From Candidatus Acidiferrales bacterium (GTDB taxonomy: Bacteria; Verrucomicrobiota; Verrucomicrobiia; Limisphaerales; UBA11358), in the NCBI GenBank assembly GCA_035482455.1, contig DATHQS010000357.1:28654-92653 (forward strand): DNA of 64,000 nucleotides, read 5' to 3'. The position numbers and the translations under genes were made by a program. Below are positions 19,416 to 37,650 of the stretch, piece by piece (position 1 is the stretch's first letter; the number at the start of each line of letters is the position of its first letter). The notes beneath the pieces are model-generated. The model had not been told where the DNA came from. It saw only the letters and a program-made list of their open reading frames with translations, and ran no database searches.

Positions 19416-19554
19416 TGGCTATTTGCTCATGGACGCATCAATTTGAGGTGTTCAGTCGAACGGAATCTTTGGCGGCTTTCTGGAATTGGAAAGCCGGTCA
19501 TTTTGGTTAGACACCATCCCCTTATCAAAAAATAAGGGCGGAAGACGAGCAACG

Positions 19555-21963: not shown

Positions 21964-22068
21964 AACTATCAATTTTATTAATCATGCGCAAGGTTTTTCA
22001 AACTCTGCCGCGCCACTCCACCACATAGATTGACGCGCCGCAAATTCCCAAGCAAACTGCCACGCACA

Positions 22069-25000
22069 ATGTCCAAACGGTTTTTCACCAATGAAGGCGA
22101 GAACACGCTGCTGAAAAAATTTGCCGGCGTGTTCACCCATAACCCTGACATTGAAAGGTTTGACGCGCTTGTTGGTTATCTGCGCGCGTCCGGTTATTTT
22201 GCTCTCCGGCCCCATCTGGAAAAAGTCCCGCTCATCCGCATCATCGTCGGGATTGACGTGGACACCGAACTGGCCCGCCACCATCGCAAGGGGCTGCTCA
22301 TGCTGGGTGACGCCGATAAGACCTTGTCATTCGTTCGCGCCAAACTCGCGGAGGACGTGCAAGGAGCGCCCTACCGGCGCGAGATTGAGGAGGGCATCCG
22401 CCAGTTTGTTGCTGATGTAGCGTCGAAGCGCGTCGAAATCCGGGCGCACTCCACCAAAAAGCTCCACGCCAAGCTCTACATATTTCTGCCGACCGGCTTT
22501 TGCGAACACAAGCCGGGCGCGGTCATCACAGGCTCGTCTAACCTTACTGCCGCCGGTTTGGGTGTCGAGGATGCCGCCAGCAACTACGAGTTCAACGTCG
22601 TGCTGCATGACTACGACGAGGTTGTGTTTGCCAAAAATGAATTCGAAAAGCTCTGGGGCGAAGGTGTCTCTGTTCTGCCGGAGGCGGTCAAGGGTGTTGT
22701 GCGCGAAAGCTACTTGCGCGAAGACCTCACGCCGTTTGAACTTTACATCAAATTTCTCATCGAATACTTCGGCCCGGCCATTGATTACGACCCTAATTCC
22801 GAACGTGATATGCCCAAGGGCCGCAAGGCGTTGAGCTATCAGGGGGACGCCGTCAATGACGGCTGGCTCAAATTGCAAAAACACGGCGGTTTTTTTCTCG
22901 CCGACGTTGTCGGCTTGGGCAAAACCGTTGTGGCGACGCGCATCGCCAAGAAATTTTATTATCATAACGGGTTTCCCAATCATCGCTCCCGTATTTTGAT
23001 CATCACGCCGCCGGCCTTGCGCGAAAATTGGGAAACAGAAATGGAGATGTTCGGTCTGGATGATGCCGTCAAGATCATCAACAACGGCAGCCTGCATAAA
23101 ATCCGCGACCCGGAGAAATACGACCTCATCATCATCGACGAGGCGCACAAGTTTCGCAATGACACCGCCGACGGTTACGACCTGCTCCAGAAATTGTGCA
23201 AGACCCGCACCAAACATCGTTTGCCTGATGACGAGTTTGCCCGGAAAAAAGTTATCCTGATCTCCGCCACGCCATTGAATAATCGCCCCGCTGACATCCG
23301 CAACCAGGTCTTGCTGTTTCAGGACGGCAAGGATTCCACCGTCATCGGCAACCTCCAGCATTTTTTCGCGCAGCGCATCAAGGAATATCAGGTCGCAACC
23401 AATCCGTTGAAGACGCCCGACCGGCAGGTGGCTCATGCCGCTGTCGCACGCATCTACGAACTCATCCGCGAGCAGGTCGTGCAACCGCTCACCGTCCGCC
23501 GCACGCGGACCGACCTCGTCGAGGATAAACGCTGGAAGGCCGATCTGGACGCGCAGGGCATCATTTTTCCCAAGGTGGAAAAACCCACGCCGATTCTTTA
23601 CCAGCTTGATGATGGCCTCGGTGTGCTATACGACCGCACCATTCAACTGTTGGCCTTCCCTGACTCCGGCGGTCTAACCTACAACCGCTACCGCGCAATC
23701 GCGTTTCTCTCCACCCTAGAGCTGAAGCAGAAATACGAACGTGCCGACCTTGTTGCTACGCAGTTGGCGCGCATCATGAAGACGATGCTGGTTAAGCGTC
23801 TGGACAGCAGTTTTATCGCGTTCAAAAAAAGTCTTGGCCGGTTCCGCGATGCCACGCAGGCGATGCTCACCATGTTCGAGCGCGGTAATATTTACATCGC
23901 GCCCAGCCTGCATGTCTCGGATTATATTTTAGAAGACCGCGAAGACGAACTTATCGCGGCCATCGCCGAAGCCAGCGAAACCGACCCAACGATCACCGCT
24001 TGCACGCCCAAAGATTTCAAACCCGAATTTCTCGACGGTTTGAAACACGACGGTAAAATTCTCGACGAGTTGGTTGCAGCCTGGGAACAAGTCCAAGCCG
24101 ATCCAAAATTGGATGAATTTCTTTCCTGCTTACGCGGCGAGGGCAGCCGTCCCAATCTGCTCACCAAGCCGTTCAATGAAACCGGCAAGCTGGTCATTTT
24201 TTCTGAGGCACGTGACACCACGCGCTATTTGACGGAAAAACTCAACGCTGCCGGTTTCGGCCCGGTGCTGACCGTGGATTCCCACAACCGCAAAGACGAA
24301 ATGCCCAAGGTCCGCGCGAATTTTGACGCGAACGTCGCCATTGGCGATGCCTCCAACCGTAGGGATGATTTCCACATCCTCATTTCCACAGAAGTCCTTG
24401 CCGAAGGAGTGAACCTCCATCGCGCCCATGTTATTGTGAATTATGATACGCCGTGGAACTCCACGCGCCTCATGCAGCGCATTGGCCGCGTCAACCGCAT
24501 TGGCAGCACTGCCAAGGCCGTCCACATTTTCAATTTCTACCCCACCACCCAGGTCGATGATGACATTGATCTCCAGCGCAAGGCGTTTCTGAAATTGCAG
24601 GCGTTCCACACCGCGCTCGGTGAGGACAGCCAGATTTATTCGCCCGACGAGGAAGTCGACAACTTCGGCCTGTTTGACCGCGCCATTGAGGAGGAGCGTG
24701 ACGAACGCCTCCGGTTCCTGTCCGAGTTGCGGGATTTCAAGGACGCGAACGAGGATGATTTCCGCAGGATTCGCAATCTCCCGCTTCGTGCCCGTTGCGG
24801 TCGGTGTGACGCAACCCAGACCGGCCACACGCTTGCTTTCATCCGCGATGACCGTCGTGATGCTTTTTATCGCATTGCTGCTGAACTTCAGGAGATTGGT
24901 TTCGTCGAAATGGCCCGGGCTTTCCGTGCCGAAGTTTCCGAATCGGCGGCCCCGTTGCCCGCCACGCACCATGAACAGGTGCTAGACGCGTTGGAGGATT

Positions 25001-25386
25001 TCCGCACCAAGCTCGCCGCCGATGCCGTGCGTGAACGGGCCGTGGACCACACCGCCGGTCCCAATGAGCAAAAGGCCATGCGTCTGCTGGCTGCCGCGCA
25101 GGGGATGCCCAACGTCTCCGCTGCCGAAAAAGCCCTGCTCGTCGCCGCCCAGCACGCCATCCGCGTTGCCAAATTTCAAGATCTGTCGCGCAAGCTCAAC
25201 GCGCTCCAAAAAGCTGTCGTCAAAAAACCGGTCACCACCGCCGCGCTCCTGGACAAGCTTTTGGAGATCATTCGCTCATACCCGCTTGATGTGGCCGAAC
25301 CGGATGCCGATGCGTCCGAAACACCTGTCGTTGACCATCGGTTTATACCGCATATCATACTGTCGGAATCTTTCACCACGAAATGA
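22069..25386 (+). CDS. PLD (single HKD) nuclease domain fused to an SNF2-family helicase/ATPase
   Basis: LHAKLYIFLP...VITGSSNLTAAGLG (HKD/GSxN, about 22456-22560). SNF2 motifs LADVVGLGKTVVA, LIIIDEAHKFRN (about 23127-23160), LISATPLNNRPADIRNQ, STEVLAEGVNLHRAHVIVNYDTPWNSTRLMQRIGRVNRIGS. The stop overlaps the next start (ATGA at 25383-25386). Confidence 0.9.
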   Translation: MSKRFFTNEGENTLLKKFAGVFTHNPDIERFDALVGYLRASGYFALRPHLEKVPLIRIIVGIDVDTELARHHRKGLLMLGDADKTLSFVRAKLAEDVQGAPYRREIEEGIRQFVADVASKRVEIRAHSTKKLHAKLYIFLPTGFCEHKPGAVITGSSNLTAAGLGVEDAASNYEFNVVLHDYDEVVFAKNEFEKLWGEGVSVLPEAVKGVVRESYLREDLTPFELYIKFLIEYFGPAIDYDPNSERDMPKGRKALSYQGDAVNDGWLKLQKHGGFFLADVVGLGKTVVATRIAKKFYYHNGFPNHRSRILIITPPALRENWETEMEMFGLDDAVKIINNGSLHKIRDPEKYDLIIIDEAHKFRNDTADGYDLLQKLCKTRTKHRLPDDEFARKKVILISATPLNNRPADIRNQVLLFQDGKDSTVIGNLQHFFAQRIKEYQVATNPLKTPDRQVAHAAVARIYELIREQVVQPLTVRRTRTDLVEDKRWKADLDAQGIIFPKVEKPTPILYQLDDGLGVLYDRTIQLLAFPDSGGLTYNRYRAIAFLSTLELKQKYERADLVATQLARIMKTMLVKRLDSSFIAFKKSLGRFRDATQAMLTMFERGNIYIAPSLHVSDYILEDREDELIAAIAEASETDPTITACTPKDFKPEFLDGLKHDGKILDELVAAWEQVQADPKLDEFLSCLRGEGSRPNLLTKPFNETGKLVIFSEARDTTRYLTEKLNAAGFGPVLTVDSHNRKDEMPKVRANFDANVAIGDASNRRDDFHILISTEVLAEGVNLHRAHVIVNYDTPWNSTRLMQRIGRVNRIGSTAKAVHIFNFYPTTQVDDDIDLQRKAFLKLQAFHTALGEDSQIYSPDEEVDNFGLFDRAIEEERDERLRFLSELRDFKDANEDDFRRIRNLPLRARCGRCDATQTGHTLAFIRDDRRDAFYRIAAELQEIGFVEMARAFRAEVSESAAPLPATHHEQVLDALEDFRTKLAADAVRERAVDHTAGPNEQKAMRLLAAAQGMPNVSAAEKALLVAAQHAIRVAKFQDLSRKLNALQKAVVKKPVTTAALLDKLLEIIRSYPLDVAEPDADASETPVVDHRFIPHIILSESFTTK

Positions 25387-28300
25387 ATTTAGCCGACTGC
25401 CAGGCCCAGTTTCAAAAAAAGTATTCACTGGAAAACTGGCGCGTCCTGTTGCCGCAATTGTTGCCCGGCGTCGCGCTCTTTGCGCAACCCCAGGATTATC
25501 CGTTGACCAATGACCGTGAGCGTAGCATCGCCACTGCCCGCCGCCAGTTCGGCGCGGCCACGCTCGCCGATGGCAAGCGCATTGCTTTTTACGAGATTGA
25601 TGTCGCCGCCAAGGTGGACTTGCTCCGCAACCGCGTCGCCCTTCGCGAGATCGTCGCCCGCTGTATTGACGAAGTCAGCGCGCACACCGTGCTCGCGTTT
25701 TTTGTCCATCCCGACAAGCCCGTTTACCGCCTGACCTATGCCGCCAAGGAAAGTCGGGTCGGTGACGACCTCAAAATCCACACCGGACAGACCGCCACGC
25801 GCCGGTACACCTACGTGCTGGGGCCGGGTGAAAGGCGCCGCACCGCCGCGTTGCGGTTGACTGCGTTATCCGAAAAGCGCGACACGACCGGGCTGAAGGA
25901 GGTCACCGACGCCTTTTCCGTCGAGAAGATCAACCGCGAATTTTTCGACACTTACAAGTCGCACTACCAGAAATTTTGCGACCATCTGCTCGCTGGCGAC
26001 GCACCGGCCAAGGTTTTCAAACTGCCACTGCGGGGTCTGGCGGATGAAGCCCGCGACCACACGCTGAAGCCGGTGCGCGACTTCGTCAAAAAGCTGTTGG
26101 GCCGCCTTGTCTTTCTTCATTTCCTCCAGAAGAAAGGCTGGTTGGGTTGTCCCGCTAATGTGACCCCTTGGAAAAACGGTGATCCTGATTTTCTCCGCCA
26201 GCTTTACACCACCGCGCCCGTCACCGACCTGCAACGGTTCCATTCCCGCCGCCTCGTGCCATTGTTCTTTGACACGCTGAACCGGCGGCGAAAAGATGAT
26301 TTATTTTCCATCACCGGCACCCGCGTCCCGTATCTTAACGGCGGTTTGTTTGAGCGCGATTTTGACGGCGTGGAGCAGATTGATTTCCCCGCGGAATTGT
26401 TCCACGACGTGCTGGAATTTTTCGGCCAATACAATTTTACCATTGATGAGAACGATCCTGATGACCACGAGATCGGCATTGACCCCGAGATGCTCGGGCA
26501 CATCTTTGAAAACTTGCTGGAAGATAACAAGGACAAGGGCGCTTACTACACGCCCAAGGCCGTCGTCCAATACATGTGCCAGCAGAGCCTCATCCATGCG
26601 CTCATCGGCCATTTTCCAAGTGACCCCGTCGCCCGCACCGAAATCGAAAAGCTCATCCGCACCAAGGAACCCATTGATGCCCGTCAGGATTCCTGGCTCG
26701 CCCGGCATGCCACGCAGTTGACCAAGGTTCTTGAAGATCTTCGCATCTGCGACCCCGCCATTGGTTCCGGCGCGTTTCCCATCGGCCTGCTTCAGGAGAT
26801 TTATTGGACCAAGCTCGCCATAAATTCCGGCCTCGACCGCGCCAAGGCCAAGCGCGATATCATCCAAAATTCCATTTTTGGCGTGGATATTGACGCTGGC
26901 GCCGTGGAAATCGCCCGGTTGCGTTTCTGGTTGGCGCTCATCGTTGAGGAAAAGAGCCCCGTGCCGTTGCCCAACCTCGATTACAAGATCATGCAGGGTA
27001 ATTCCCTGCTGGAAAGTTTTGAGGGCATTGACCTGAGCAATCTTACTGGCAAACAGCGCAAAGCCATCCAGTTGATCGGCACGGAGCAGACGGAACTGGG
27101 CCTCAAGACCGTCTCCACCGAACTGACCATCGAGTTCGCCGAGGGCAAGCAAGCCGAGATCACCAGCCTCATCGGCGGCTACTTTGGTCAGGACGATCTG
27201 GAGCTGAAACAAAAGTTGCATGGCGAGATTGATGACCTCGTGCTTGGCCACATTGAATACAATCTGGATTTGCATGAGGAACGGATTGAGGCGGCGCTCG
27301 ATAATGCCCGCAAGGAACTCAAACGCAAGCAGGCACGCGCCCGTGGCTACGAACCTACCAAGCGGGAGGCCGGCCGCATTGCCGAACTGGAAGCACAACT
27401 GGCTGAGGTGGACCGCAAGCGGGCGGCACTGGCGGAATTGCAGGAAAAACCGGAACGACCATTCTTTCTCTGGCACCTGTATTTCCAAAATGTGTTTGCT
27501 CGCGGCGGGTTCGATATCGTCGTAGCCAATCCGCCTTACGTCCGGCACGAGGCAATCAAGGATCAAAAGGCCGCGTTGCAAGCCGCGCCTTACGAATGTT
27601 ACGACGGCTTCGCCGACCTGCTGGTTTATTTTTACGAGCGTTCGGTAAAACTACTGCGTCCCGGTGGCGTGCTGACTTTCATCACCTCAAATAAATTTTA
27701 CCGCGCCGGTTATGGCGAGAAACTGCGCGGTTTTCTTGCCCGTGAACTAACCCTGCACCGGCTGATTGATTTTGGCGACGCACCCGTGTTCGAGGCCATC
27801 GCCTATGCCTCCATTCTCGAAGGAACACGCGCCGCGCCGTCTACTGACGCCTCGGCACGGATTTACACTTGGGGAAAGGGAATGCCCCTCGACAGTATTG
27901 CCTCCGTAATTGGGTCGCACGGCCAGCCAATTCGCCAAGACGAGCTCAAGCCAGACGGCTGGCGGCTTGAATCACCAATAGTGCTTCGTCTTCTCGCCAA
28001 ACTCCGCGCAAACGGCACGCCGTTAGGTGAGTATGTGAAAGGGTGTTTGTATTATGGAATCAAGACCGGCCTCAACGCAGCATTTATTGTAGATCGCGCC
28101 ACGCGCGACCAGCTCATTGCCGAGCACTCCTCGTCGGCACAGCTTTTGAAGCCTTGGCTTAGGGGACAAGATATTGACCGCTGGCAGATTTCCCCCTCAG
28201 ACCTTTGGCTGATTTTTCCGCCCCGAGGAACGGACATCAACAAATACCCTGCTATCAAAGGCTATTTAAATAAATTTAAGGAACAACTTTCACCAGGAGT

Positions 28301-29570
28301 TGACGGTGGCCGAAAGCCTGGCGATTATGAATGGTTCGAGATACAAGACAATGTTGCATATTGGCGTGAGTTCAAAACGCCAAAAATTGTCTTCCCAGAT
28401 ATTGCCAAGAGTTCTGAATTTGCTTGGGACAGTGGTGGCCATTTTGTCGGCAACACCGGCTATATACTTCCAACGCAAGATAAGTGGCTGCTCGCTGTTC
28501 TCAACTCATCGGCAGTTTTCTGGTTTTACCTCAATGTTAGCAACTTCATCCGGGGCGGGTATGTGCGGTTTATTAGGCAATATGTTGAAACCATTCCCAT
28601 CCCCACCACGACCGCTGCGGACCATACGGAGTTAAGCGCCCTCGTTGACCATATCCTTACGGCGAAGCGCGCCGGAGACGAGGAGACGGTGCATCAGTTA
28701 GAACACGAAATTGACGCGCACGTTTTCCGGCTCTACGCCCTCACGCCGGAAGAGATAAAGCTGGTGCAGTCCGTCCATGTCGAATCGGTTTCCGACAACC
28801 CGAAGTCCAACCTGTTCAACCGCGAGCAGCCCGAACTCAAAGCGGTGTCACCTTACTTCACCAACGCTGATCGCACCGCAATTTACGACCGGGTACTGAC
28901 CGAACTCAAAGCGTCGTCCCCCTATTTCACCACCACCGCCATCACCCGCCGCGCACAGGAGTTGGATCCTGAAATCAACCTCGACTCTTTGGCTGTGTAT
29001 CTCTCTGGGGTTACGGCCAATGGTTTGGTTCATGATGCTGGTCGCGGCTGGTATTCCGGATTGAGCAATCCCGTGCCGCTGGATGCCAAGCCGGTCGTCA
29101 AACTCATCCGTGCCGTCGAAAAGGCGTTCCCGCTGCTGGAGTTCACCGTCTGGTCCACCGCGCAAATCAATCCCTGGATGCACCACCTGCTCGCTCAGCC
29201 TGTCACGTTCCTTTACGCCCCGGCGGACACCCTTGAATCCGTCGGCGACACCCTCCGTGAACAAGGCTGGGAAATCGCCCTCGACCCCGGCAAGAAGGAG
29301 GGATCGAAACTGGTTCGCCCCGGCGAGAAAATGCTGGTCTTGCGCCCCACCCATTCCAAACAGCCCGCCCCGGCTGGGCGGCAGGCCAAAATCGAGCAAA
29401 TCTTGGTGGATTTGCAGCTCGAAGCCGGGCGCTTGGCGCTCATGGATACCTCCGAAGCCCAAGGTGTCATTCGGGCAATTTTGGGCCAATATCTTGTGCA
29501 AGTGGCTGAAATGAAGACCTATGCAGACTTTAGAACACTTAAGTTAAATGATTTAGAAGCACTTAACTAA
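25383..29570 (+). CDS. 1395-aa N6-adenine DNA methyltransferase (Eco57I/type IIG-like, TaqI-type C-terminal specificity domain) with an extra C-terminal ~250-aa AbiEi-like module
   Basis: Motif I ICDPAIGSGAFPIG, motif IV VVANPPYVRHE (NPPY at 27528-27539), TRD-like GTPLGEYVKGCLYYGIKTGLNAAFIVD. The C-terminal tail (about 28800-29567) contains FTTTAITRRAQEL..SLAVYLSGVTANGLVHDAGRGWYS and IEQILVDLQLE. Confidence 0.85.
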   Translation: MNLADCQAQFQKKYSLENWRVLLPQLLPGVALFAQPQDYPLTNDRERSIATARRQFGAATLADGKRIAFYEIDVAAKVDLLRNRVALREIVARCIDEVSAHTVLAFFVHPDKPVYRLTYAAKESRVGDDLKIHTGQTATRRYTYVLGPGERRRTAALRLTALSEKRDTTGLKEVTDAFSVEKINREFFDTYKSHYQKFCDHLLAGDAPAKVFKLPLRGLADEARDHTLKPVRDFVKKLLGRLVFLHFLQKKGWLGCPANVTPWKNGDPDFLRQLYTTAPVTDLQRFHSRRLVPLFFDTLNRRRKDDLFSITGTRVPYLNGGLFERDFDGVEQIDFPAELFHDVLEFFGQYNFTIDENDPDDHEIGIDPEMLGHIFENLLEDNKDKGAYYTPKAVVQYMCQQSLIHALIGHFPSDPVARTEIEKLIRTKEPIDARQDSWLARHATQLTKVLEDLRICDPAIGSGAFPIGLLQEIYWTKLAINSGLDRAKAKRDIIQNSIFGVDIDAGAVEIARLRFWLALIVEEKSPVPLPNLDYKIMQGNSLLESFEGIDLSNLTGKQRKAIQLIGTEQTELGLKTVSTELTIEFAEGKQAEITSLIGGYFGQDDLELKQKLHGEIDDLVLGHIEYNLDLHEERIEAALDNARKELKRKQARARGYEPTKREAGRIAELEAQLAEVDRKRAALAELQEKPERPFFLWHLYFQNVFARGGFDIVVANPPYVRHEAIKDQKAALQAAPYECYDGFADLLVYFYERSVKLLRPGGVLTFITSNKFYRAGYGEKLRGFLARELTLHRLIDFGDAPVFEAIAYASILEGTRAAPSTDASARIYTWGKGMPLDSIASVIGSHGQPIRQDELKPDGWRLESPIVLRLLAKLRANGTPLGEYVKGCLYYGIKTGLNAAFIVDRATRDQLIAEHSSSAQLLKPWLRGQDIDRWQISPSDLWLIFPPRGTDINKYPAIKGYLNKFKEQLSPGVDGGRKPGDYEWFEIQDNVAYWREFKTPKIVFPDIAKSSEFAWDSGGHFVGNTGYILPTQDKWLLAVLNSSAVFWFYLNVSNFIRGGYVRFIRQYVETIPIPTTTAADHTELSALVDHILTAKRAGDEETVHQLEHEIDAHVFRLYALTPEEIKLVQSVHVESVSDNPKSNLFNREQPELKAVSPYFTNADRTAIYDRVLTELKASSPYFTTTAITRRAQELDPEINLDSLAVYLSGVTANGLVHDAGRGWYSGLSNPVPLDAKPVVKLIRAVEKAFPLLEFTVWSTAQINPWMHHLLAQPVTFLYAPADTLESVGDTLREQGWEIALDPGKKEGSKLVRPGEKMLVLRPTHSKQPAPAGRQAKIEQILVDLQLEAGRLALMDTSEAQGVIRAILGQYLVQVAEMKTYADFRTLKLNDLEALN

Positions 29571-29616
29571 ATCCAATTAGTTTAATAATTTGGAGATGAT
29601 TAATAGGTAAAAATCT

Positions 29617-30726
29617 ATGTTTTCACCGGGGCTATTGACGGCGGGGGCACTGCAAAAGCAGGCGAAAACTCTGGGCGGTTGCAACCAGGATATCTTGGAA
29701 CGCAGCCTTTACGCCCTCACCCTTCTGGGGCATCTGGCAGATACCAAAATCCCCTTCATTTTTAAGGGCGGCACCAGCCTGCTCCTGCACCTGCCCGAAG
29801 TGCGCCGTCTTTCGATTGATATTGATATCGTCTGCGGTGAAAAGCCGGCGGTGATCGATGCGGCAGTGGCGCAGATTGGCAAAAAAACACCGTTCATCCG
29901 GTCCGAGGAACACGTTCGAGATCATTTTATCAAGCTGCCGCAGCGCCGGCACTTCAAGTTTTTTTATCGTTCTGCGATCGGCGGCCAGGAAGTTCCCATC
30001 TTGTTGGATGTGGTGGAGGAGTCGCGGATCCACCACCAGCTGACAACCCGCCCGATTCAAACGTCATTCATCAAGCCGGACCGCGAGATCATGGTTCAGC
30101 TCCCCACCTTGGAGAGCTTGTTGGGGGACAAGTTGACGGCTTTCGCGCCCACGACCGTCGGTGTGCCGCTACGTAAATCTGATGGTCAGCCCGGCGATGT
30201 CATGCAGGTCACCAAACAGTTGTTCGACATCGGCGTGTTGTTCGGGGCGGCCACAAATTTCAATGAAGTCGCCTCCACCTATGACGCCGTACAGAGACTG
30301 GAATCGGAATATCGTCCGACCAAACCCAGCCGCGAGGCTTCGCTGGCGGATACCTTTCAGGCATGCCTGGCGACGACCGCATCAAAGACACGCGACGTGG
30401 CGGCTTACGCGGATGCGCCGCTGTTGCAGAGCGGATTCCAAAGTTTGCGCGGGCATTTGACGTGGCCCGGATTTGCGGCGACTCAAGAACCGAAGCGTAT
30501 CATTGCCGCTCGAACCGCTGTTTTGGTTGCTCATCTGCGTGCTGGTGTTCCATTTGATTTTGCCGCCCATCGCTTCACCGGCAGCACCGAACAAATCGAG
30601 ACCGTCCGTGGTCTCACACTAAACGGGACGTCATTGGCTTGGCTAGACGGAATGCGGGCCGTCAATCCGGAAGCTTATTATTATTGGCATCGTGCCATCC
30701 AGCTAACCCCGCCTCCGGCCGCTTGA
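29617..30726 (+). CDS. AbiEii/AbiGii-family nucleotidyltransferase (type IV TA toxin-like)
   Basis: IPFIFKGGTSLLLHLPEVRRLSIDIDIVC (about 29755-29840) matches the KGGTAL...R.S.DlD signature of DUF1814/AbiEii NTases. The gene starts 46 bp after the methyltransferase stop. Confidence 0.75.
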   Translation: MFSPGLLTAGALQKQAKTLGGCNQDILERSLYALTLLGHLADTKIPFIFKGGTSLLLHLPEVRRLSIDIDIVCGEKPAVIDAAVAQIGKKTPFIRSEEHVRDHFIKLPQRRHFKFFYRSAIGGQEVPILLDVVEESRIHHQLTTRPIQTSFIKPDREIMVQLPTLESLLGDKLTAFAPTTVGVPLRKSDGQPGDVMQVTKQLFDIGVLFGAATNFNEVASTYDAVQRLESEYRPTKPSREASLADTFQACLATTASKTRDVAAYADAPLLQSGFQSLRGHLTWPGFAATQEPKRIIAARTAVLVAHLRAGVPFDFAAHRFTGSTEQIETVRGLTLNGTSLAWLDGMRAVNPEAYYYWHRAIQLTPPPAA

Positions 30727-30854
30727 TGCTGAGCATGACAACGACAACAATGACGATGATGATGACCACCACCACCACCACCGCCGCCGCCGCCACCAAG
30801 ACGATAACGAACAGGAGTCAGTGTGCGGTAACAATTTCAAAAATAAGGGATTAA
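30726..30854 (+). CDS. 42-codon Thr/Met/Ala-rich mini-ORF bridging two genes (leader-peptide-like)
   Basis: MLSMTTTTMTMMMTTTTTTAAAATKTITNRSQCAVTISKIRD. Its ATG overlaps the AbiEii stop (tgATG) and its TAA lies 4 nt before the next ATG at 30859. It contains (ACC)6 and (GCC)4 runs. Whether it is translated is unproven. Confidence 0.35.
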   Translation: MLSMTTTTMTMMMTTTTTTAAAATKTITNRSQCAVTISKIRD

Positions 30855-30858
30855 AATC

Positions 30859-33180
30859 ATGTTCACCGTCAAGGCTACGAAAGAGTTCATCGGCGGATTA
30901 GAAAAACTTCGGGACGCCGAAGCGCGGAAAGTTAAGGCGGCAATGGTAGATGCAAGTGTGTCGGGCAAAATTTATTTGCCACCGTCGCGCCATGGGGAAG
31001 ATCGTATTCCCAATGTGGAAAAATATATGGTCAGCGACGGTGACCGGTTGGTGGTGCAGATGATTGATCCCAAAAACAAGGTTCGCATTTTTTTATTCGT
31101 TGGCACTCACGACGAAACCCAAAGATGGTTGGATAGTCATGGTGGCTATCAGTGGGTGGAAAAAAAGTCAGACTCAAAAATTGAGTTTGTCCAAGTGACC
31201 GATGCTATGCCTCAAATACCTCAATCGAACACGCCGGCACCGGTCGCCAAACCGGACCCAGCTTCATGCCCAGTGAATGCGATGGAAACGCCACCACATA
31301 AGCCCGGCCCGCTGCTGGGATTTTTGGAATCAGAAGATTGGGGTGGCTTGGCGCTCCGAAACGAGACCAAGGATTTCCTCACCACCGTGGATCAGCAATT
31401 CATGCTGACCCGCGAGCAGGAGGTCTTCGATAAATTGCCAACCTTGGAACCCGACAAGCGGGCCAATCTGATTTATGACATGCTCTGCCTGGCCGCGAAG
31501 GGTGATTATGAGGGTGCGAAACAACGGCTGGCGCTGCATAAAAACGAAGCTCGCGTGGTCGAGGGTGAGCAGTTGGCGGCCGCCATGGAGCAGCCAATTA
31601 ACAGCGAGGACATAATCACTTTCGACGACGCAAACACCCTTCAAGAATTTGTGAAAAAGGGTGGGACCATCTCGGAATGGATGTATTTTCTCCATCCCAG
31701 CCAGAGCGATTTGGTAAAACGTGATTTTAATGGCCCAGCCCGACTTCGTGGCATATCCGGCAGCGGAAAGACTTGTGTGCTACTGCATCGTGCTCGCCGC
31801 CTTACCAAGCTCTATCATGAGCCGGTTCTAGTGGTTACCCTCACTGAAAGTATGCGGAAACTTTTGGATTCTCTTCTCGACGATCTGTGTGGTGTGGAGC
31901 GGCATTTGATTGCCGTGGCCACAGTTAATTCTACGATCCGGGCCGTGCTTGAATCGTCGTATGGTGAGCGGATGGAAATCATTCGGCTCACGGATTCACA
32001 AGAAGACAAGCTGCTGGCGGACAGTGTGAAGTTTATTCGCAGCAATGCTGGTTTTGCCGAAACACCGTTCCGTCATTTTAATTCGATTGATCTGAATCGC
32101 TTTATCCGGGACGAATTTGCATTTGTTCGCAGTCGCCTGATTCCGGCCGATTACCAGAAGTATATCGAAACGGATACCTTCCCGAGACGAGGACGGGGTC
32201 TGGCGTTAATCCGAAAAGCCCGTGAAGTGGTTTTGCAAGGATTATACTATTTTGAAACCGAACTGGATAAGCTGAAGGCTGCGGACGGTGAGGCCATCAC
32301 GCAGGCTGCGCGCAGCCTTGTTGCCGACCCTAACAACAAAACGAAACGTTACCGTTCGGTCTTGGTTGACGAGGTTCAGGATTTGAGCCAGTTGGAACTG
32401 GAAATCATGGCCAACCTGCTGACCAATCAGGGTGAGCCTGTCCGGTCAGTCCCAAATGGATTTTTCCTGGTGGGTGACGGCACGCAGACAATCTACCGCC
32501 GCGGATTTCGGTTGGTGAATGCCGGGGTTGCGATTATCGGGCGAAGTTATTATCTGAAGAAGAATTATCGCAACACCATGGAAATCCTTCAGGCGGGCTA
32601 CGCTTTGGTTTCACACTATGAATTTGCCGACTCTGATGAAAGCGAACTGGTTCGGCCATTGGAACCTGACTATGCGTCACGACGCGGTGCCAAACCGACA
32701 TTGGTTAAATGCCGCGATACGGATGATGAAGCCGCCTATGTTGTGGCCACTATTTGTTTGCTCTGCGCCAATTCAGTCAAACCTGGACAGATTTGTGTCA
32801 TTGGTTGCAATAAAACAGTTCGGGATGCCGTAAAACAGCTCTTGAGTGATACCGAGCTGCCCTTTATTGAGCTGCGTGAGGACGTTAAAGTGGATAGTCA
32901 GAACATCAAGATTTCCACGATTGAATCCGCCAAGGGGCATGAGTTTCACACAGTTTTCATCGCCGGCCTGGTCGAGGGAGTGATGCCACCCAAGGGCACT
33001 GATGAGGCCGAAATTCCCCGTGAAGTTGCACGCCTTTATGTCGCCATGACCAGGGCACAGGATTTTCTGCATCTTTCTTATTCCTTTACACCGGCCTTCC
33101 CAGCCTCGCGTTTTTTGCTCCACTTTCAAGAACATTGCGAAGAAAAAGCATATTTTAACGGCCAACTTCGCGATCTATAG
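30859..33180 (+). CDS. UvrD/Rep-like SF1 helicase with an N-terminal ~280-aa extension (first ~95 aa RelE/ParE-fold-like)
   Basis: Walker A LRGISGSGKTCVLLHRA (about 31750), Walker B SVLVDEVQDLSQLE, NYRNT, and C-terminal STIESAKGHEFHTVFIAGL...LYVAMTRAQDFLHLSY. The N-terminus ends ...YMVSDGDRLVVQMIDPKNKVRIFLFVGTHDETQRWL. Confidence 0.8.
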   Translation: MFTVKATKEFIGGLEKLRDAEARKVKAAMVDASVSGKIYLPPSRHGEDRIPNVEKYMVSDGDRLVVQMIDPKNKVRIFLFVGTHDETQRWLDSHGGYQWVEKKSDSKIEFVQVTDAMPQIPQSNTPAPVAKPDPASCPVNAMETPPHKPGPLLGFLESEDWGGLALRNETKDFLTTVDQQFMLTREQEVFDKLPTLEPDKRANLIYDMLCLAAKGDYEGAKQRLALHKNEARVVEGEQLAAAMEQPINSEDIITFDDANTLQEFVKKGGTISEWMYFLHPSQSDLVKRDFNGPARLRGISGSGKTCVLLHRARRLTKLYHEPVLVVTLTESMRKLLDSLLDDLCGVERHLIAVATVNSTIRAVLESSYGERMEIIRLTDSQEDKLLADSVKFIRSNAGFAETPFRHFNSIDLNRFIRDEFAFVRSRLIPADYQKYIETDTFPRRGRGLALIRKAREVVLQGLYYFETELDKLKAADGEAITQAARSLVADPNNKTKRYRSVLVDEVQDLSQLELEIMANLLTNQGEPVRSVPNGFFLVGDGTQTIYRRGFRLVNAGVAIIGRSYYLKKNYRNTMEILQAGYALVSHYEFADSDESELVRPLEPDYASRRGAKPTLVKCRDTDDEAAYVVATICLLCANSVKPGQICVIGCNKTVRDAVKQLLSDTELPFIELREDVKVDSQNIKISTIESAKGHEFHTVFIAGLVEGVMPPKGTDEAEIPREVARLYVAMTRAQDFLHLSYSFTPAFPASRFLLHFQEHCEEKAYFNGQLRDL

Positions 33181-33205
33181 CCCACCACCAAAGCCAAACT
33201 AATCT

Positions 33206-34516
33206 ATGCAACGTAACGCTGCCATCACGCATAAGACCACCACCAAAAGTATTTTGGACCTCCAAAACCTTTTTGACCATGGTCACCTGAATCTGGAACC
33301 GGGGTTTCAGCGTCAATCCGTCTGGAACGAGAGGGATCGCGCCAAGTTGATAGACAGCATTTTGCGCAATTATCCGTTGCCCGCCATTTTTCTCTATAAG
33401 CGCGAAGAGGAAGGCAACCTGGTTTTTGACGTGATCGATGGCAAACAGCGGCTCGAATCCATTTTCATGTTCATGGGCGCGATGCGGGGGAAGTATTGGA
33501 CCCGTACGCAGTTGCCCGACATGGAATCTGTGGAATGGATTGATTGGGCGCATTTGCGCCGACGTGGCAAACAGCACCTCATCACCGGCTATGAAATTCC
33601 CGTCATCGAGGTGGATGGGGAGATGGGTGACATCGTTAGTGTGTTCGTCCGGATCAATTCCACTGGTAAGGCTCTGACGCAACAGGAGAAACGGCACGCC
33701 CGCTATTGCGACAGTCAGTTTTTGAAGGAGGCTTCCCGTTTGGCCAACCGGTTCGAGCATTATTTTACCACGAACGGTATTTTCAGCAGCGGCCAACTGA
33801 GCCGGATGAAGCACGTCGAGTTCATATGCGAACTCATGCTGTCACTGGTGCAGGGCGATGTGTTGAACAAAAAGACCGCGCTGGACCGGGTCATGGCCAC
33901 GTCCTCATTTGACGGCCGGCAGCTGAACAAAGCCTCGCGCATGGTCACCACCACGCTGAACCGTATCCGCCGCATGTTTCCGCACCTCAAGGCGACGCGG
34001 CTGCGCCAGGTAACAGATTTTTACAGCTTGGCGGTGTTGATTGGGAAATTTGAATCGGAGGGGATGATCCTCACCGACCGGCGCCGCAATCGCCTCGCAT
34101 GGGATCTGTTGCAAGCCTTCGTGACCCGGGTAGATGAGGTACGGGAGTTGCAACGCAAGGCCAAGGGGGCGCGGCCGGATCAGGAGCTTTACCGGGATTA
34201 TTTGCTGACGGTGTCACAGATGACCGACGACGTAAGCCAGCGCCGTAAGCGCGAGCTCATTCTGCGCGGGATATTGGAAAGCCTGTTCACCAAGCGGGAT
34301 GGCCAACGCGGGTTCACTGCCGAACAGCGCCGCATCATTTGGAATACGTCTGTCAACCGTACCTGCTCCCATCCGGGCTGCAATCGCAAGCTATCTTGGG
34401 ACGATTTTACAATCGACCATATCAATCCGCACAGCAAAGGTGGCCGGAGCCAGTTGGAAAATGCGGCGCTCATGTGCCGGGAGCACAATTCCGCCAAGGG
34501 CAACCGCCGCAGATAA
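33206..34516 (+). CDS. DUF262 (ParB/GmrSD-N-like) domain fused to a C-terminal HNH nuclease
   Basis: LEPGFQRQSVWNERDRAKLIDSILRNYPLPAIFLY...VIDGKQRLESI (DGQQR-type motif about 33436-33450). C-terminal CSHPGCNRKLSWDDFTIDHINPHSKGGRSQLENAALMCREHNSAKGNR (HNH). Confidence 0.85.
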   Translation: MQRNAAITHKTTTKSILDLQNLFDHGHLNLEPGFQRQSVWNERDRAKLIDSILRNYPLPAIFLYKREEEGNLVFDVIDGKQRLESIFMFMGAMRGKYWTRTQLPDMESVEWIDWAHLRRRGKQHLITGYEIPVIEVDGEMGDIVSVFVRINSTGKALTQQEKRHARYCDSQFLKEASRLANRFEHYFTTNGIFSSGQLSRMKHVEFICELMLSLVQGDVLNKKTALDRVMATSSFDGRQLNKASRMVTTTLNRIRRMFPHLKATRLRQVTDFYSLAVLIGKFESEGMILTDRRRNRLAWDLLQAFVTRVDEVRELQRKAKGARPDQELYRDYLLTVSQMTDDVSQRRKRELILRGILESLFTKRDGQRGFTAEQRRIIWNTSVNRTCSHPGCNRKLSWDDFTIDHINPHSKGGRSQLENAALMCREHNSAKGNRRR

Positions 34517-34743
34517 GAAGCCGGCGAGAAGGGCATTCTCATGCCGCCCACCTTACCGGTCGCGGGGTTGTTGGGGATTGCTTTTTTCATAAAACTGCAC
34601 GAGAAAAGTGGCGGCGTGACAGATTTAGGTCGTTTTTTTTGGAAAACTGCGGGAATCAAGTTTCTTAAACTGCTTAACATCAAACGCTTGTAGACATAGC
34701 GCTTTTTCCGGCGTTCCTTGATAAAGGATAGGTTTAATATACT

Positions 34744-36261
34744 ATGGGCAGCGTGACATTACCCTTGGATTTAAAGCAGTATATCGGCCCTGAAGAGATT
34801 CTGACTTCCAGCCAGCTGGTGGAACGGGTCACCGCCAATAAAATGGCACCGCCTAGTGCACGTCAGCTGATCCGCCGTAATTCCGAAGCTCAAGGTATCT
34901 GGCGGTCCCAACACCTTGTTTTGCCCGGAGGCGGTCGGTTGTTTTGTCATGCTGGATTTAGACGGAATGACAGGTTTTTTACTACCATTTTGCCGGTCCT
35001 CGATGAGTTCCGGCCCGGAATCGCCCGGCTGGTTCGTGCTGTGATGGCTGAAAGCGTTGTTCTATATCCCCGTGCCGAACAGCTGTTGGCCTCACCGGTG
35101 ATTCCAGACAATTCAAGTTACCCCTATTCCGGTCATGACATCGATGCTCTGACCGAACTGGGTTTGGGACGTCTGGAAGCCGATGACAGCGTCCTGAAAC
35201 GCTTCTCTGCTGACAGCCTTGATCTCGCCACCTCACACGCTCTGGCCATCCGGTCCAACGCAAGGTTTTTGGCTGAAGTCGCCTTAGCTAGAATCTTGTT
35301 TGAACAATTGCGGCATCAAAACGTGATCTCCTGGAATAAAAAGGCCATGCCGGATAAGGCCGCCAGCCTGGTCAGTTTTAATAATTTCCTTTTTTCCGCC
35401 ACGGGTTTTTCGTGGTTGCGGCCGATGTTGCGTTTTAACAAATCAGAAAAGCCCAAGGCGACTCCGGCCGTGCTGGATGTCATCGCCAAGCTTTGTGAGG
35501 TTTATGATGTCGATTCTTTCGCTGAGCGGATTCAGCGCGCCGGGCAGAATAAAAATTCCAAATTGGCCATTTTAGGGATTATTGCCGCATTTGATTTTAC
35601 CAAAGCAGCCTGGAAAAAGGCCAAGGCAGAGGGGTATGTCGCGATCAATCTCCGGCAACATTTTGGAGACGCGGCGTTTGAAGCATTGGTGGTGGTTCAA
35701 GAAATATTGAAGAATGTTGCCGGCGAGCCGGCAAAAGCAAAAGACGAGGATTATCAAAAATTGGCCGACACGTTGGAGCAGCTGAAATGCAATCCGTATG
35801 TGGTGGACTTGAGATCGCTGGGCTTTGAATCTGTTTCTGGACTGCTCCTGCGAACCAAGGGCTATGAAAATGTTCAGCTGAATCTTAAGGTTGCCCACGA
35901 CTCCGGCGAAGAACGGGAGGTCGATGTTTGCGGCGATCGGAACGGTCGGTCGGAACTGTTCGTGGTTGAATGTAAGGCCGAATCATCAAACAAAATGCTG
36001 GCCGGTGAGTTCGTCCAAAAATTTTATACGGAGACCGTTCCCGCCTATCTGAAATCTATGTCAGCTGGTGGCCCTAAAGAATGTCGGGCGGAAATCTGGA
36101 CCACTGGCCAGGTTGGCGATGAGGCTAAATCGGCATTGTCTCAAATCAAAATGAGCGCACTGATTAAGCCCGCGATGCTCGGTCACGAGGACGTGAAAAG
36201 TTTGGTTCCGAAGTCGCTGGGTTCCTGCAAGCGCCTTTTGGAGGCAATTTCAGCCCACTGA
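34744..36261 (+). CDS. 505-aa hypothetical protein with C-terminal PD-(D/E)xK-like nuclease motif
   Basis: No recognisable N-terminal domain. The C-terminus EEREVDVCGDRNGRSELFVVECKAESS (about 35917-35980) fits D-x(n)-E-x-K. Confidence 0.55.
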   Translation: MGSVTLPLDLKQYIGPEEILTSSQLVERVTANKMAPPSARQLIRRNSEAQGIWRSQHLVLPGGGRLFCHAGFRRNDRFFTTILPVLDEFRPGIARLVRAVMAESVVLYPRAEQLLASPVIPDNSSYPYSGHDIDALTELGLGRLEADDSVLKRFSADSLDLATSHALAIRSNARFLAEVALARILFEQLRHQNVISWNKKAMPDKAASLVSFNNFLFSATGFSWLRPMLRFNKSEKPKATPAVLDVIAKLCEVYDVDSFAERIQRAGQNKNSKLAILGIIAAFDFTKAAWKKAKAEGYVAINLRQHFGDAAFEALVVVQEILKNVAGEPAKAKDEDYQKLADTLEQLKCNPYVVDLRSLGFESVSGLLLRTKGYENVQLNLKVAHDSGEEREVDVCGDRNGRSELFVVECKAESSNKMLAGEFVQKFYTETVPAYLKSMSAGGPKECRAEIWTTGQVGDEAKSALSQIKMSALIKPAMLGHEDVKSLVPKSLGSCKRLLEAISAH

Positions 36262-36284
36262 GTCGCGGTCTGGTTTTGGGTCAA

Positions 36285-36316
36285 GCTGCCCCTGCCACCG
36301 GCAGCATTTCTTTTCC
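36285..36316 (+). terminator. weak rho-independent terminator candidate after the 505-aa gene
   Basis: gctgcc-cctgccacc-ggcagc followed by atttcttttcc. Confidence 0.35.
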
Positions 36317-36500
36317 AACGAGTTACCTGCTGGGTGGCGGCATCGTGGAAAAACTTGGGATTGAACGCTTTATGCCCTGATTCGATTTTTTGGCGCGGCT
36401 CAATTATCTTTGAATGGCTATGGTGGGTTGGACAGCCTTTGTCCAACCGGCTTTGAGATGATTGTCAAAAAGCTTTAAAAGCACGAAATGCGGCAATAGA

Positions 36501-37538: not shown

Positions 37539-37650
37539 ATCAATGCGTTTGGTGTCCCTGCTCGAATACTGGCCCAAGCAGCCTCCATCGTCGGGATGGC
37601 TTGGATGTCATTGACACTGGCCCACCAATTCCCTGACCCTGGCCTTGTCC

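What the first reader, a model, noticed from the sequence alone, without database searches (positions are those of the whole stretch)
30726..30854. Homopolymeric-codon mini-ORF (MLSMTTTTMTMMMTTTTTTAAAATK...) wedged between the AbiEii and helicase genes
The 132-bp spacer is almost entirely filled by a 42-codon ORF. Its ATG overlaps the upstream TGA, and its TAA sits 4 nt before the helicase ATG. Codons 4-24 are only Thr, Met and Ala, including (ACC)6 and (GCC)4. The composition recalls amino-acid-operon leader peptides such as thrL. A ribosome pausing here, through Thr/Met/Ala-tRNA limitation or phage-induced tRNA or translation damage, could gate translation re-initiation of the downstream helicase/HNH pair. 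Alternatively it is a simple trinucleotide expansion tract.
Basis: partly seen in the sequence, partly recalled or inferred. Interest (0 to 1): 0.55.

Follow-up and report, generated by a model that had tools for sequence, protein, structure and literature searches.

The report
Slipping triplet-repeat mini-ORF after AbiEii
The odd Thr/Met/Ala mini-ORF is real, but it is best read as a fast-slipping codon-phased microsatellite that sits after the AbiEii toxin gene in several defence islands and probably only passes ribosomes on to the next gene, not as an amino-acid-sensing leader peptide.

Summary
The ORF runs 30726-30854 (42 codons). Its ATG shares the A of the AbiEii TGA, its TAA lies 4 nt before the helicase ATG, and it contains (ACC)6(GCC)4.

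The same kind of tract follows the AbiEii stop in at least five further lineages, whose AbiEii proteins are 34-78% identical to the window's. Nothing comparable occurs elsewhere in about 1 Mb of surveyed DNA, apart from one weak unrelated hit.

- **Phase:** the ATG-phase is always -1 relative to AbiEii, so the AbiEii frame fills with TGA codons.
- **Repeat units:** every unit is a multiple of 3 (3 to 24 nt).
- **Frame:** the -1 frame stays open to the start region of the next gene.
- **Mutation rate:** two near-identical loci differ only by in-frame indels of 15 and 36 nt.
- **Codon identity:** it is not conserved. The runs are Thr/Met/Ala, Leu, Val/Thr or Met-Ala-Arg-Thr.
- **Attenuator features:** there is no terminator or antiterminator and no significant RNA fold. 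Two lineages have no co-directional downstream gene.

Best reading (confidence 0.45): a codon-phased microsatellite at a module junction, kept open as a translationally coupled bridge ORF. A thrL-like attenuator is not supported. Interest is moderate to low.

The parts
29617..30726 (+). AbiEii-family nucleotidyltransferase toxin gene; the tract is attached to its 3' end.
   Evidence: Pfam PF08843 at 5e-22. PADLOC AbiEii at 1e-81. The upstream type IIG methyltransferase (25383-29570) carries an AbiEi/DUF6577 domain at its C-terminus.
30723..30728 (+). Stop-start overlap TTGATG. The AbiEii TGA is at 30724-30726. In the -1 frame, TTG lies at 30723 and ATG at 30726.
   Evidence: Sequence. The same NTGA overlap is found in L011 (ATGA), L099 (GTGA), L017 (ATGATGA) and L094 (ATGA).
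30726..30854 (+). 42-codon mini-ORF in the -1 frame relative to AbiEii.
   Evidence: Gene callers did not call it in the identical contig L001. It has no Pfam or NCBIfam family.
30731..30817 (.). Triplet-periodic low-complexity tract. The ATG/ACR part is 30735-30764, (ACC)6 is 30765-30782, (GCC)4 is 30783-30794, and ACC is 30795-30797.
   Evidence: peak triplet self-identity 0.88 in a 45-nt window within this span. The 5' part aligns with L099, including an identical ATG(ACC)6GCC stretch.
30825..30858 (+). Helicase 5' UTR block, with SD AAGGGA at 30845-30850 and the mini-ORF TAA at 30852-30854. It travels with the helicase gene.
   Evidence: The same block precedes the helicase in L011, and in L005 where the helicase follows GmrSD instead. 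The C-terminal 'ISKIRD*' of the mini-ORF is therefore helicase UTR sequence.
30859..33180 (+). UvrD-like SF1 helicase, the downstream gene that would receive the ribosomes.
   Evidence: Pfam UvrD/UvrD_C. 92% and 87% identical to the helicases of L005 and L011.
33206..34516 (+). GmrSD_N (DUF262) + HNH nuclease, the cassette partner of the helicase.
   Evidence: Pfam. 96-97% identical in L005 and L017, where it directly follows the tract.
30722..30738 (+). 5' arm of a possible long-range RNA helix. It pairs with 30857-30873 and covers the helicase AUG. Unconfirmed lead.
   Evidence: Pair probability is about 1.0 in the 181-nt context, and an analogous helix forms in L011. Duplex energy is at about the 98th percentile of controls in both. 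The helix is lost once more than about 120 nt of helicase CDS is included.
30857..30873 (+). 3' arm of that possible helix, spanning the helicase start codon and codons 2-5.

Best explanation
The tract is a codon-phased microsatellite that has grown at the stop-start overlap behind this clade of AbiEii toxin genes. It lies at the junction between a variable methylase-AbiEi/AbiEii module and whatever follows. Here that is a highly conserved, shuffled helicase + GmrSD/HNH cassette.

**Shown.** It evolves by replication slippage of units of 3n nucleotides, much faster than by point substitution.

**Inferred.**
- It is tolerated, and kept open in the -1 frame, because it is translated as a passive bridge ORF.
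- Ribosomes finishing AbiEii at UGA would restart at the overlapping or nearby in-frame AUGs and read through the spacer.
- They would terminate at UAA between the helicase SD and its AUG, 4 nt upstream of the AUG, and so be delivered to the helicase start.
- Translation of the spacer would also keep it from being naked RNA.
- The peptide itself, uncharged and variable, is probably a by-product.
- It does not sense a particular amino acid or tRNA.
For: - **Geometry at both ends**.
- **Recurrence.** The tract recurs directly after AbiEii in the window, L094, L099, L017, L011 and L005/L185. These AbiEii proteins are 34-87% identical to one another. The recurrence is specific to that site in about 1 Mb.
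- **Constant phase.** The ATG-phase is -1 relative to AbiEii in all lineages. An ATG, GTG or TTG overlaps the stop, or lies 20 nt downstream in L005.
- **Unit sizes.** All 24 TRF periods across the five lineages are multiples of 3: 3, 6, 9, 12, 15, 18 and 24.
- **Slippage.** L005 and L185 share a 590-nt block with 0 substitutions, within flanks about 3% divergent. Inside the block they differ by two in-frame indels, 15 and 36 nt, so the ORF changes from 73 to 56 codons.
- **Open frame beyond the repeats.** In all four lineages with a co-directional downstream gene, the -1 frame stays open through the non-repetitive tail to the next start region. It ends 4 nt, 4 nt and 17 nt before the next start, or overlaps it by 29 nt. 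The joint shuffle probability is about 0.01.
- **Junction position.** GmrSD is 96-97% and the helicase 87-92% identical across loci whose AbiEii proteins are only 35-53% identical, and the gene order is swapped.
Against: - There are no expression data of any kind.
- No SD precedes the mini-ORF start in the window. In L005 the GGGGA is only 2-3 nt from the ATG.
- The helicase has its own SD, so coupling may be unnecessary.
- Synonymous codon usage of the mini-ORF frame is not gene-like in the window, L011 and L017. Mean log RSCU is -0.11, 0.02 and -0.01, against 0.10-0.17 for the flanking genes.
- The +1 frame and three antisense frames are also open inside the repeats. The 3n periodicity follows automatically once a triplet seed exists.
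- L099 carries a recently expanded tract (a 15-nt unit, 4.4 copies, 94% matches) with no co-directional downstream gene. Expansion therefore does not need a coupling function.
- Most AbiEii loci of the clade lack the tract.
- In L185 the hydrophobic segment is shortened by 5 residues, which argues against constraint on the peptide.
Confidence: 0.45

Rival explanations
1. Neutral junk. The tract is a slippage-prone, non-functional stretch of DNA at a recombination junction. The ORF is incidental, because triplet repeats lacking stop triplets are open in most frames.
For: - Five of six frames are open in the repeats.
- Codon usage in the mini-ORF frame is poor in three of five lineages.
- There is no SD.
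- The tract is present and still expanding in L099 without a downstream gene.
- L094 has a short, degenerate version.
- Most clade members lack it.
- L005 versus L185 shows indels accumulating faster than substitutions.
Against: - The tract is exclusively associated with the AbiEii stop across AbiEii lineages that are only 35-55% identical.
- The phase relative to AbiEii is constant.
- The -1 frame stays open through the non-repeat tails (joint p about 0.01).
- No non-3n unit was seen in 24 TRF rows.
Confidence: 0.3
2. RNA-structure coupling. The helicase start codon is sequestered by a long-range helix with the AbiEii stop region (30722-30738 pairing with 30857-30873). A ribosome terminating on AbiEii melts the helix. 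The tract is merely the loop.
For: - The helix has pair probability about 1.0 in the window and 0.77-0.99 in L011.
- The two AbiEii 3' ends are unrelated, yet each has its own extra complementarity to the helicase 5' coding region.
- Duplex energies are -24.1 and -21.1 kcal/mol. Only 1.75% and 1.5% of control segments do as well.
Against: - Pair probability falls to about 0.01 once more than about 120 nt of helicase coding sequence is included.
- Overall fold z-scores are not significant.
- The core is the near-palindrome (U)CAUGA, which any AUG-rich tract would provide.
- There is no equivalent pairing in L005 or L017, where GmrSD follows the tract.
Confidence: 0.1
3. Functional small protein. 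The mini-ORF encodes a rapidly evolving, uncharged or hydrophobic peptide that acts with AbiEii, for example as a membrane-associated third component.
For: - The L005 and L017 versions contain a Leu-rich, transmembrane-like segment.
- All versions lack charged residues over their first 24-50 residues.
- JGI gene callers called the ORF in L005, L185 and L186.
Against: - The window peptide is poly-Thr/Met/Ala and not transmembrane-like.
- Sequences cannot be aligned beyond the first few codons, even between AbiEii proteins that are 87% identical (L017 versus L099).
- The L185 deletion removes 5 residues of the hydrophobic core.
- There is no family match.
- The exact peptides are absent from the 15-billion-protein collection.
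- The C-terminus in the window is helicase UTR sequence.
Confidence: 0.08
4. Leader-peptide or translation-stress sensor. Ribosome pausing on Thr/Met/Ala codon runs, for example after tRNA damage, gates helicase/HNH expression.
For: - Homo-codon runs lie directly upstream of the helicase start.
- AbiEii-family toxins modify tRNAs (PMC7450476, PMC10435456; bioRxiv 10.64898/2026.01.19.700257, read).
Against: - Codon identity is not conserved between lineages.
- There is no attenuator structure or terminator.
- The tract is present without a downstream gene in L099 and L094.
- S. agalactiae AbiEii appears to prefer class II tRNAs. By textbook knowledge these are Leu, Ser and Tyr, not Thr, Met or Ala.
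Confidence: 0.04
5. The coding frame is another one. Either an antisense Val/Ile/Ala-rich hydrophobic peptide resembling a type I toxin (30799-30662 in the window, an 89-aa ORF in L011), or an Asp/His/Arg-rich tail added to AbiEii by +1 frameshifting.
For: - The antisense frame has the most gene-like RSCU in all five lineages, 0.15-0.23.
- It was called by gene callers in L011 and L187.
- The +1 frame is open from the stop in all lineages. One T/C difference between L094 and L099 is synonymous in that frame.
Against: - Antisense: only a TTG start in the window, no SD and no promoter evidence. The frame turns Ser-rich in L005 and L017. The good RSCU is a symmetry artefact of (RYS)n repeats.
- +1 frame: it has no start codon upstream of or within the repeats, and the codons before the stop (GCU, GGA, CAG, CGA, CAA) cannot re-pair after a +1 slip.
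Confidence: 0.03

Closest known systems
Translational coupling by overlapping stop-start codons (termination-reinitiation, e.g. the UGAUG junction of trpB-trpA in E. coli; from general knowledge)
   Same: There is a TGATG overlap at the AbiEii/mini-ORF junction. A stop lies 4 nt before the next ATG. All genes are co-directional and tightly packed.
   Different: Here the hand-over would take two steps, through an intervening repetitive ORF of 42-89 codons. The downstream gene also has its own SD. Nothing has been shown experimentally.
Amino-acid operon leader peptides / attenuators (thrL, hisL, leuL; from general knowledge)
   Same: It is a short ORF with runs of identical codons placed just before a gene.
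   Different: There are no terminator/antiterminator hairpins. It lies inside an operon, after a gene. Codon identity differs between homologous tracts. The flanking genes are defence genes, not biosynthetic ones.
Simple-sequence-repeat contingency loci of restriction-modification and surface genes (phase variation in Haemophilus, Neisseria, Helicobacter; from general knowledge)
   Same: It is a tandem simple repeat in a restriction/defence context. Its length changes by slippage faster than point mutations accumulate (L005 versus L185).
   Different: All units are 3n and the tract lies between genes. Length changes therefore cannot switch a reading frame on or off. Tracts were identical across samples within each clone.
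Long-distance RNA pairing that makes a downstream start depend on upstream translation (the MS2 coat-replicase 'Min Jou' interaction; from general knowledge)
   Same: The predicted helix pairs the upstream gene's terminal region with the downstream start codon, in both the window and L011.
   Different: The prediction is not robust to sequence context, is not statistically strong, and is absent in the GmrSD-first arrangements.
AbiE (AbiEi/AbiEii) toxin-antitoxin abortive-infection systems
   Same: The flanking toxin gene is a clear AbiEii, and an AbiEi/DUF6577 domain is encoded upstream.
   Different: The antitoxin domain is fused to the C-terminus of a 1395-aa type IIG methyltransferase. No third small ORF or repeat tract came to light for AbiE in two full-text searches or in the one section of an AbiEii preprint that was read.

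Membership tests
Leader-peptide transcription attenuator (thrL type) | Short ORF with a run of the regulatory amino acid's codons | tested here: met
   Residues 4-24 are only Thr, Met and Ala.
Leader-peptide transcription attenuator (thrL type) | Mutually exclusive terminator/antiterminator hairpins followed by a U-run, between the leader ORF and the regulated gene | tested here: not met
   No plus-strand terminator-like site lies in 30726-30859. The minimum-free-energy fold has z = -0.75 and the tract is largely unpaired. No credible Rfam match: only far-sub-threshold miRNA-model hits on the low-complexity tract.
Leader-peptide transcription attenuator (thrL type) | Position in the 5' leader of the operon, behind the promoter | tested here: not met
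   The ORF overlaps the stop of an upstream gene, inside a co-directional array spanning 22030-38631.
Leader-peptide transcription attenuator (thrL type) | Conservation of the regulatory codon identity in homologues | tested here: not met
   The runs are Thr/Ala, Leu, Val/Thr or Met-Ala-Arg-Thr in different lineages.
Translationally coupled gene pair (termination-reinitiation) | Stop of the upstream ORF overlaps, or lies within a few nt of, the start of the downstream ORF on the same strand | tested here: met
   TGATG at 30724-30728. TAA at 30852-30854 and ATG at 30859. The same holds in L011.
Translationally coupled gene pair (termination-reinitiation) | Downstream translation depends on upstream translation | not testable with these tools
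   This needs reporter fusions or Ribo-seq.
Phase-variable simple-sequence contingency locus | Tandem simple repeat with length polymorphism between close relatives | tested here: met
   L005 and L185 differ by 15-nt and 36-nt indels within a 590-nt block that has no substitutions. No variant of the window's own tract was recovered: L001 is identical, and the Logan contigs break inside it.
Phase-variable simple-sequence contingency locus | Repeat-number change switches expression, through a frameshift within a gene or altered promoter spacing | tested here: not met
   All unit lengths are multiples of 3. The tract is intergenic and no supported promoter spans it.
Type I toxin-like small hydrophobic peptide (antisense frame) | Independent start codon with a ribosome-binding site, and its own promoter | tested here: not met
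   The window has only a TTG at 30799 and no purine-rich SD upstream on the minus strand. No minus-strand promoter-like site was found.
AbiE toxin-antitoxin system (context, not the tract itself) | AbiEii (DUF1814) nucleotidyltransferase preceded by an AbiEi-type antitoxin | tested here: met
   PF08843 and PADLOC AbiEii match on 29617-30726. AbiEi/DUF6577 matches residues 1172-1387 of the upstream methyltransferase.

The most novel reading that the evidence does not exclude
The codon-run mini-ORF is a built-in translation-status sensor. When the adjacent AbiEii-family toxin (a tRNA nucleotidyltransferase) or a phage disables particular tRNAs, ribosomes stall in the lineage-specific codon runs. 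Stalling changes delivery of ribosomes to the downstream helicase/GmrSD-HNH effectors, or Rho access to the spacer. Rapid slippage would retune which tRNAs are monitored.
Probability: 0.05. Interest if true: 0.8.

Novelty: new variant of a known kind. Interest (0 to 1): 0.35.

Why it matters
If the bridge-ORF reading is right, it shows how mosaic defence islands can join unrelated gene modules and still keep them translationally linked. A self-expanding triplet tract would act as a flexible, frame-safe adaptor.

It is also a caution for annotation. Gene callers alternately ignored the tract, called the sense ORF, or called an antisense ORF. Assemblers tended to break contigs in it.

The recurrent and exclusive association with the 3' end of one AbiEii clade is unexplained. 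It is cheap to test with reporter fusions. If the tract proves neutral, it is simply a rare bacterial intergenic trinucleotide microsatellite.

Tried and rejected
- **Known RNA.** The only Rfam hits were sub-threshold miRNA models on low-complexity sequence.
- **Attenuator.** No terminator was found and no fold was significant.
- **Helicase relatives in genomes.** A single-protein scan of genome contigs found nothing. Other helicase contexts (L012, L174, L175, L178) have no tract and no AbiEii.
- **GmrSD away from AbiEii.** L182-L184 and the fusion protein P0246 lack the tract. The tract therefore belongs to AbiEii, not to the cassette.
- **Plasmid and viral collections.** These returned only distant AbiEii homologues, not examined for the tract.
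- **Exact-peptide look-up and family searches.** Both came back empty.
- **C-rich Rho-loading site as a common property.** Rejected by inspection of the tract sequences (no composition count was run): the L011 and L017 tracts are G-rich or GT-rich, not C-rich.
- **G-quadruplex as a common property.** Rejected by eye for the same reason of inconsistency; no G4 scan was run.
- **Ancestral small protein overlapping the AbiEii stop.** About 11 -1-frame ORFs of at least 25 codons at the stop among roughly 43 clade loci. That is roughly the number expected by chance on a rough estimate.
- **+1 frameshift tail.** Rejected because no slippery re-pairing is possible.
- **Within-clone variation.** L017 and L186-L191 are identical throughout, as are L005, L006 and L007 over the aligned tract region. 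They gave no information on substitution patterns.
- **Literature.** Searches for DUF6577, and for AbiEii combined with small ORFs or with trinucleotide repeats and coupling, found nothing relevant.
Full report
**1. The observation**

- AbiEii (29617-30726; PF08843) ends in TGA at 30724-30726.
- An ATG at 30726-30728 shares that A, and a TTG at 30723 is in the same frame.
- The ORF runs to a TAA at 30852-30854, 4 nt before the helicase ATG at 30859.
- It encodes MLSMTTTTMTMMMTTTTTTAAAATKTITNRSQCAVTISKIRD.
- (ACC)6 lies at 30765-30782 and (GCC)4 at 30783-30794.
- TRF reports the tract with period 3.

**2. Context**

The window carries an ICE-like element.
- **Mobility genes:** tRNA-Gly, a TrwC relaxase, ParB/RepB and a serine recombinase.
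- **Defence cargo, in order:** PLD+SNF2 helicase; a 1395-aa type IIG methyltransferase whose C-terminus is an AbiEi/DUF6577 antitoxin domain; AbiEii; the tract; a UvrD-like helicase; GmrSD_N+HNH; an Mrr-like nuclease; a dCTP-deaminase-like protein; an HNH nuclease.
- **Host:** the identical AbiEii protein is named in NCBI as coming from a Candidatus Acidoferrales MAG.

**3. The tract recurs after AbiEii and nowhere else**

I retrieved about 160 AbiEii loci from metagenomes and genomes, plus relatives found through the helicase and GmrSD genes.

A triplet-periodic, Met/Thr-rich tract begins at or just after the AbiEii stop in these lineages:

| Locus | AbiEii identity to window | -1-frame ORF |
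|---|---|---|
| window (= L001/L003) | 100% | 42 codons |
| L094 | 78% | short version |
| L099 | 55% | 49 codons |
| L017 (= L186-L191) | 53% | 49 codons |
| L011 | 41% | 89 codons |
| L005/L006/L007 and L185 | 35% | 73 and 56 codons |

A scan of 987 kb for 45-nt windows with at least 0.69 triplet self-identity found such tracts only at this position. The one exception was a weak, unrelated hit in L015. The feature is therefore real and specifically linked to the 3' end of this AbiEii clade. Most clade members nevertheless lack it.

**4. Anatomy shared by all lineages**

- The ATG-phase is always -1 relative to AbiEii. As a result the AbiEii frame is littered with TGA codons, 7 within 14 codons in the window.
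- The -1 frame starts with ATG, GTG or TTG overlapping the stop (NTGA). In L005 it starts 20 nt downstream.
- The repeats follow an (R-Y-S)n pattern. This yields uncharged residues (M, T, A, V, L, P) in the sense frame.
- Because (RYS)n maps onto itself on the opposite strand, an antisense frame is equally hydrophobic.
- Every TRF period in five lineages is a multiple of 3: 3, 6, 9, 12, 15, 18 and 24, in 24 rows. Elsewhere in the window periods of 7, 10, 11, 14 and 23 are common.
- The window and L099 tracts are homologous at their 5' ends and share an identical ATG(ACC)6GCC stretch. L017 and L099 have AbiEii proteins 87% identical, yet their tracts cannot be aligned beyond about 30 nt.

**5. 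Mutation process**

L005 and L185 are about 3% divergent in AbiEii and GmrSD, mostly at third codon positions. They share a 590-nt block with no substitutions that spans the AbiEii 3' end, the tract and the GmrSD 5' end. Inside that block they differ by exactly two indels. One is a single copy of a 15-nt unit. The other is 36 nt from the stretch made of 12-nt units. Both are in frame.

Slippage is therefore much faster than substitution. The junction also lies inside a recent recombination block.

Within a clone the tract is stable across samples. L005, L006 and L007 are identical, L017 and L186-L191 are identical, and the window equals L001. Three assemblies break contigs inside a tract (L002/L004 and L007). 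That hints at read-level heterogeneity but does not prove it.

**6. Junction between modules**

GmrSD/HNH is 96-97% identical among the window, L005 and L017. The helicase is 92% and 87% identical in L005 and L011. The adjacent AbiEii proteins are only 35-53% identical. The helicase/GmrSD order is swapped between the window and L005.

The last 34 nt or so before the helicase ATG, including its SD and the mini-ORF's TAA, travel with the helicase. They are present in L005, where the helicase follows GmrSD. The mini-ORF's 'ISKIRD*' end is therefore helicase UTR.

Away from AbiEii, GmrSD and the helicase have no tract. L099 and L094 have the tract but only convergent genes downstream. L014 has a truncated helicase directly after AbiEii and no tract. 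The tract thus belongs to the AbiEii side of a junction that has repeatedly received or lost the cassette.

**7. Is it translated?**

*Evidence for translation:*
- The stop-start geometry at both ends.
- The constant phase.
- In-frame evolution.
- In all four lineages with a co-directional downstream gene, the -1 frame remains open through the non-repetitive tail up to the next start region. The joint shuffle probability is about 0.01, or somewhat higher because the window and L011 share about 10 codons.

*Evidence against translation:*
- No SD precedes the start.
- Synonymous codon usage is unremarkable or poor in three of five lineages.
- Other frames are open as well.
- The 3n periodicity perpetuates itself once a triplet seed exists.
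- The peptides match no family and are absent from the protein collection.
- Gene callers disagree. They made no call in L001, called the sense ORF in L005, L185 and L186, and called an antisense ORF in L011 and L187.

**8. RNA level**

There is no credible Rfam family (only far-sub-threshold miRNA-model hits), no plus-strand terminator and no significant folding (z = -0.75, -0.35 and +1.79).

One lead remains. In both the window and L011, the AbiEii stop region pairs with the helicase start codon region. In the window this is 30722-30738 with 30857-30873, 16 bp. Pair probabilities are about 0.8-1.0, and each lineage has its own extra complementarity. Duplex energies are near the 98th percentile of control segments. 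However, the helix disappears from the ensemble when more than about 120 nt of helicase coding sequence is included. It has no counterpart in L005 or L017. I treat it as unconfirmed.

**9. Interpretation**

The thrL-style leader or attenuator idea fails four defining tests: structure, position, codon conservation and the need for a downstream gene.

Tying the codon runs to tRNA damage by the toxin has no support either. Codon identity differs between lineages. The one AbiEii studied seems to prefer class II tRNAs (bioRxiv 10.64898/2026.01.19.700257), which by textbook knowledge are Leu, Ser and Tyr.

The best-supported account is a codon-phased microsatellite at a module junction. It is tolerated, and probably kept open, as a passively translated bridge ORF that relays ribosomes from AbiEii to the next gene (confidence 0.45). 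The main rival is that it is simply neutral slippage-prone DNA whose ORF is incidental (0.30). The slippage, the site specificity and the junction position are shown. Translation and coupling are inferred.

**10. Novelty and score**

My literature searches found no description of such a tract in AbiE systems or defence islands. It combines two known things, bacterial simple-sequence repeats and stop-start coupling, in an unusual arrangement: intergenic, 3n-only, recurrent at one gene's stop codon. I class it as a new variant of a known kind.

There is no evidence for a regulatory role. Interest is 0.35.

Noticed in passing
window 29529-29580: A 23-24-nt direct repeat (TTTAGAACACTTAAGCTAAATGA, about 2 copies) straddles the stop of the methyltransferase-AbiEi fusion (29568-29570) and the spacer before AbiEii. 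It might be an operator-like element or merely a duplicated C-terminal coding segment.
   Followed up: no
window 19556-19974: A 203-nt unit repeated 1.9 times, with nested 11-12-nt sub-repeats, lies inside a minus-strand ORF (19427-20311, 294 aa) that has no Pfam match. It sits between the relaxase and a ClpP-like protease gene.
   Followed up: no
window 25383-29570: A type IIG (MmeI/Eco57I-like) restriction-methyltransferase carries an AbiEi/DUF6577 antitoxin domain fused to its C-terminus (residues about 1172-1387). It is followed by AbiEii. About 34 of 138 scorable AbiEii loci have such a long (at least 450-codon) upstream ORF; its Pfam content was confirmed only for the L005, L011, L185 and L186-L189 relatives. 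All tract-bearing loci except L005/L006 fall in this set, because in those two the fetched flank cuts the upstream ORF short.
   Followed up: partly
window 30859-34516 versus L005 1643-5322: The UvrD-like helicase and the GmrSD_N/HNH gene form a highly conserved cassette (92-97% protein identity). Its internal order is swapped between elements, and it is attached to very different AbiEii modules. The GmrSD 5' UTR (window 33181-33205, CCCACCACCAAAGCCAAAC...) resembles the ends of the L005 and window tracts.
   Followed up: partly
L005 1157-1746 versus L185: A 590-nt block with zero substitutions is embedded in flanks about 3% divergent. This indicates a recent recombination or gene-conversion event across the AbiEii/tract/GmrSD junction.
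   Followed up: yes
L014 2470-3189: An AbiEii 77% identical to the window's is followed, after 30 nt, by an N-terminally truncated UvrD-like ORF with no tract. This looks like a deletion derivative of the window arrangement.
   Followed up: partly
L192 4111-4296: A locus with a stand-alone DUF6577 gene plus AbiEii (76% identical) has a non-repetitive 52-codon -1-frame ORF (MTMPRTLSLLVQPLLF...) overlapping the AbiEii stop by ATGA. It could be an unexpanded counterpart of the tract, or a chance ORF.
   Followed up: no
window 34541-34693: A 50-codon ORF lies between GmrSD/HNH and the Mrr-like gene. It was called by gene callers in the related contigs L003 and L004 and has no family match on record.
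   Followed up: no
window 36462-38631: A dCTP-deaminase-like gene (PF22769) is followed by an HNH_2 nuclease gene. These are further probable anti-phage cargo on the same element.
   Followed up: no
window 48938-48958: A perfect (CGC)7 repeat lies inside ORF 48585-49277. It is the only other trinucleotide array in the window.
   Followed up: no
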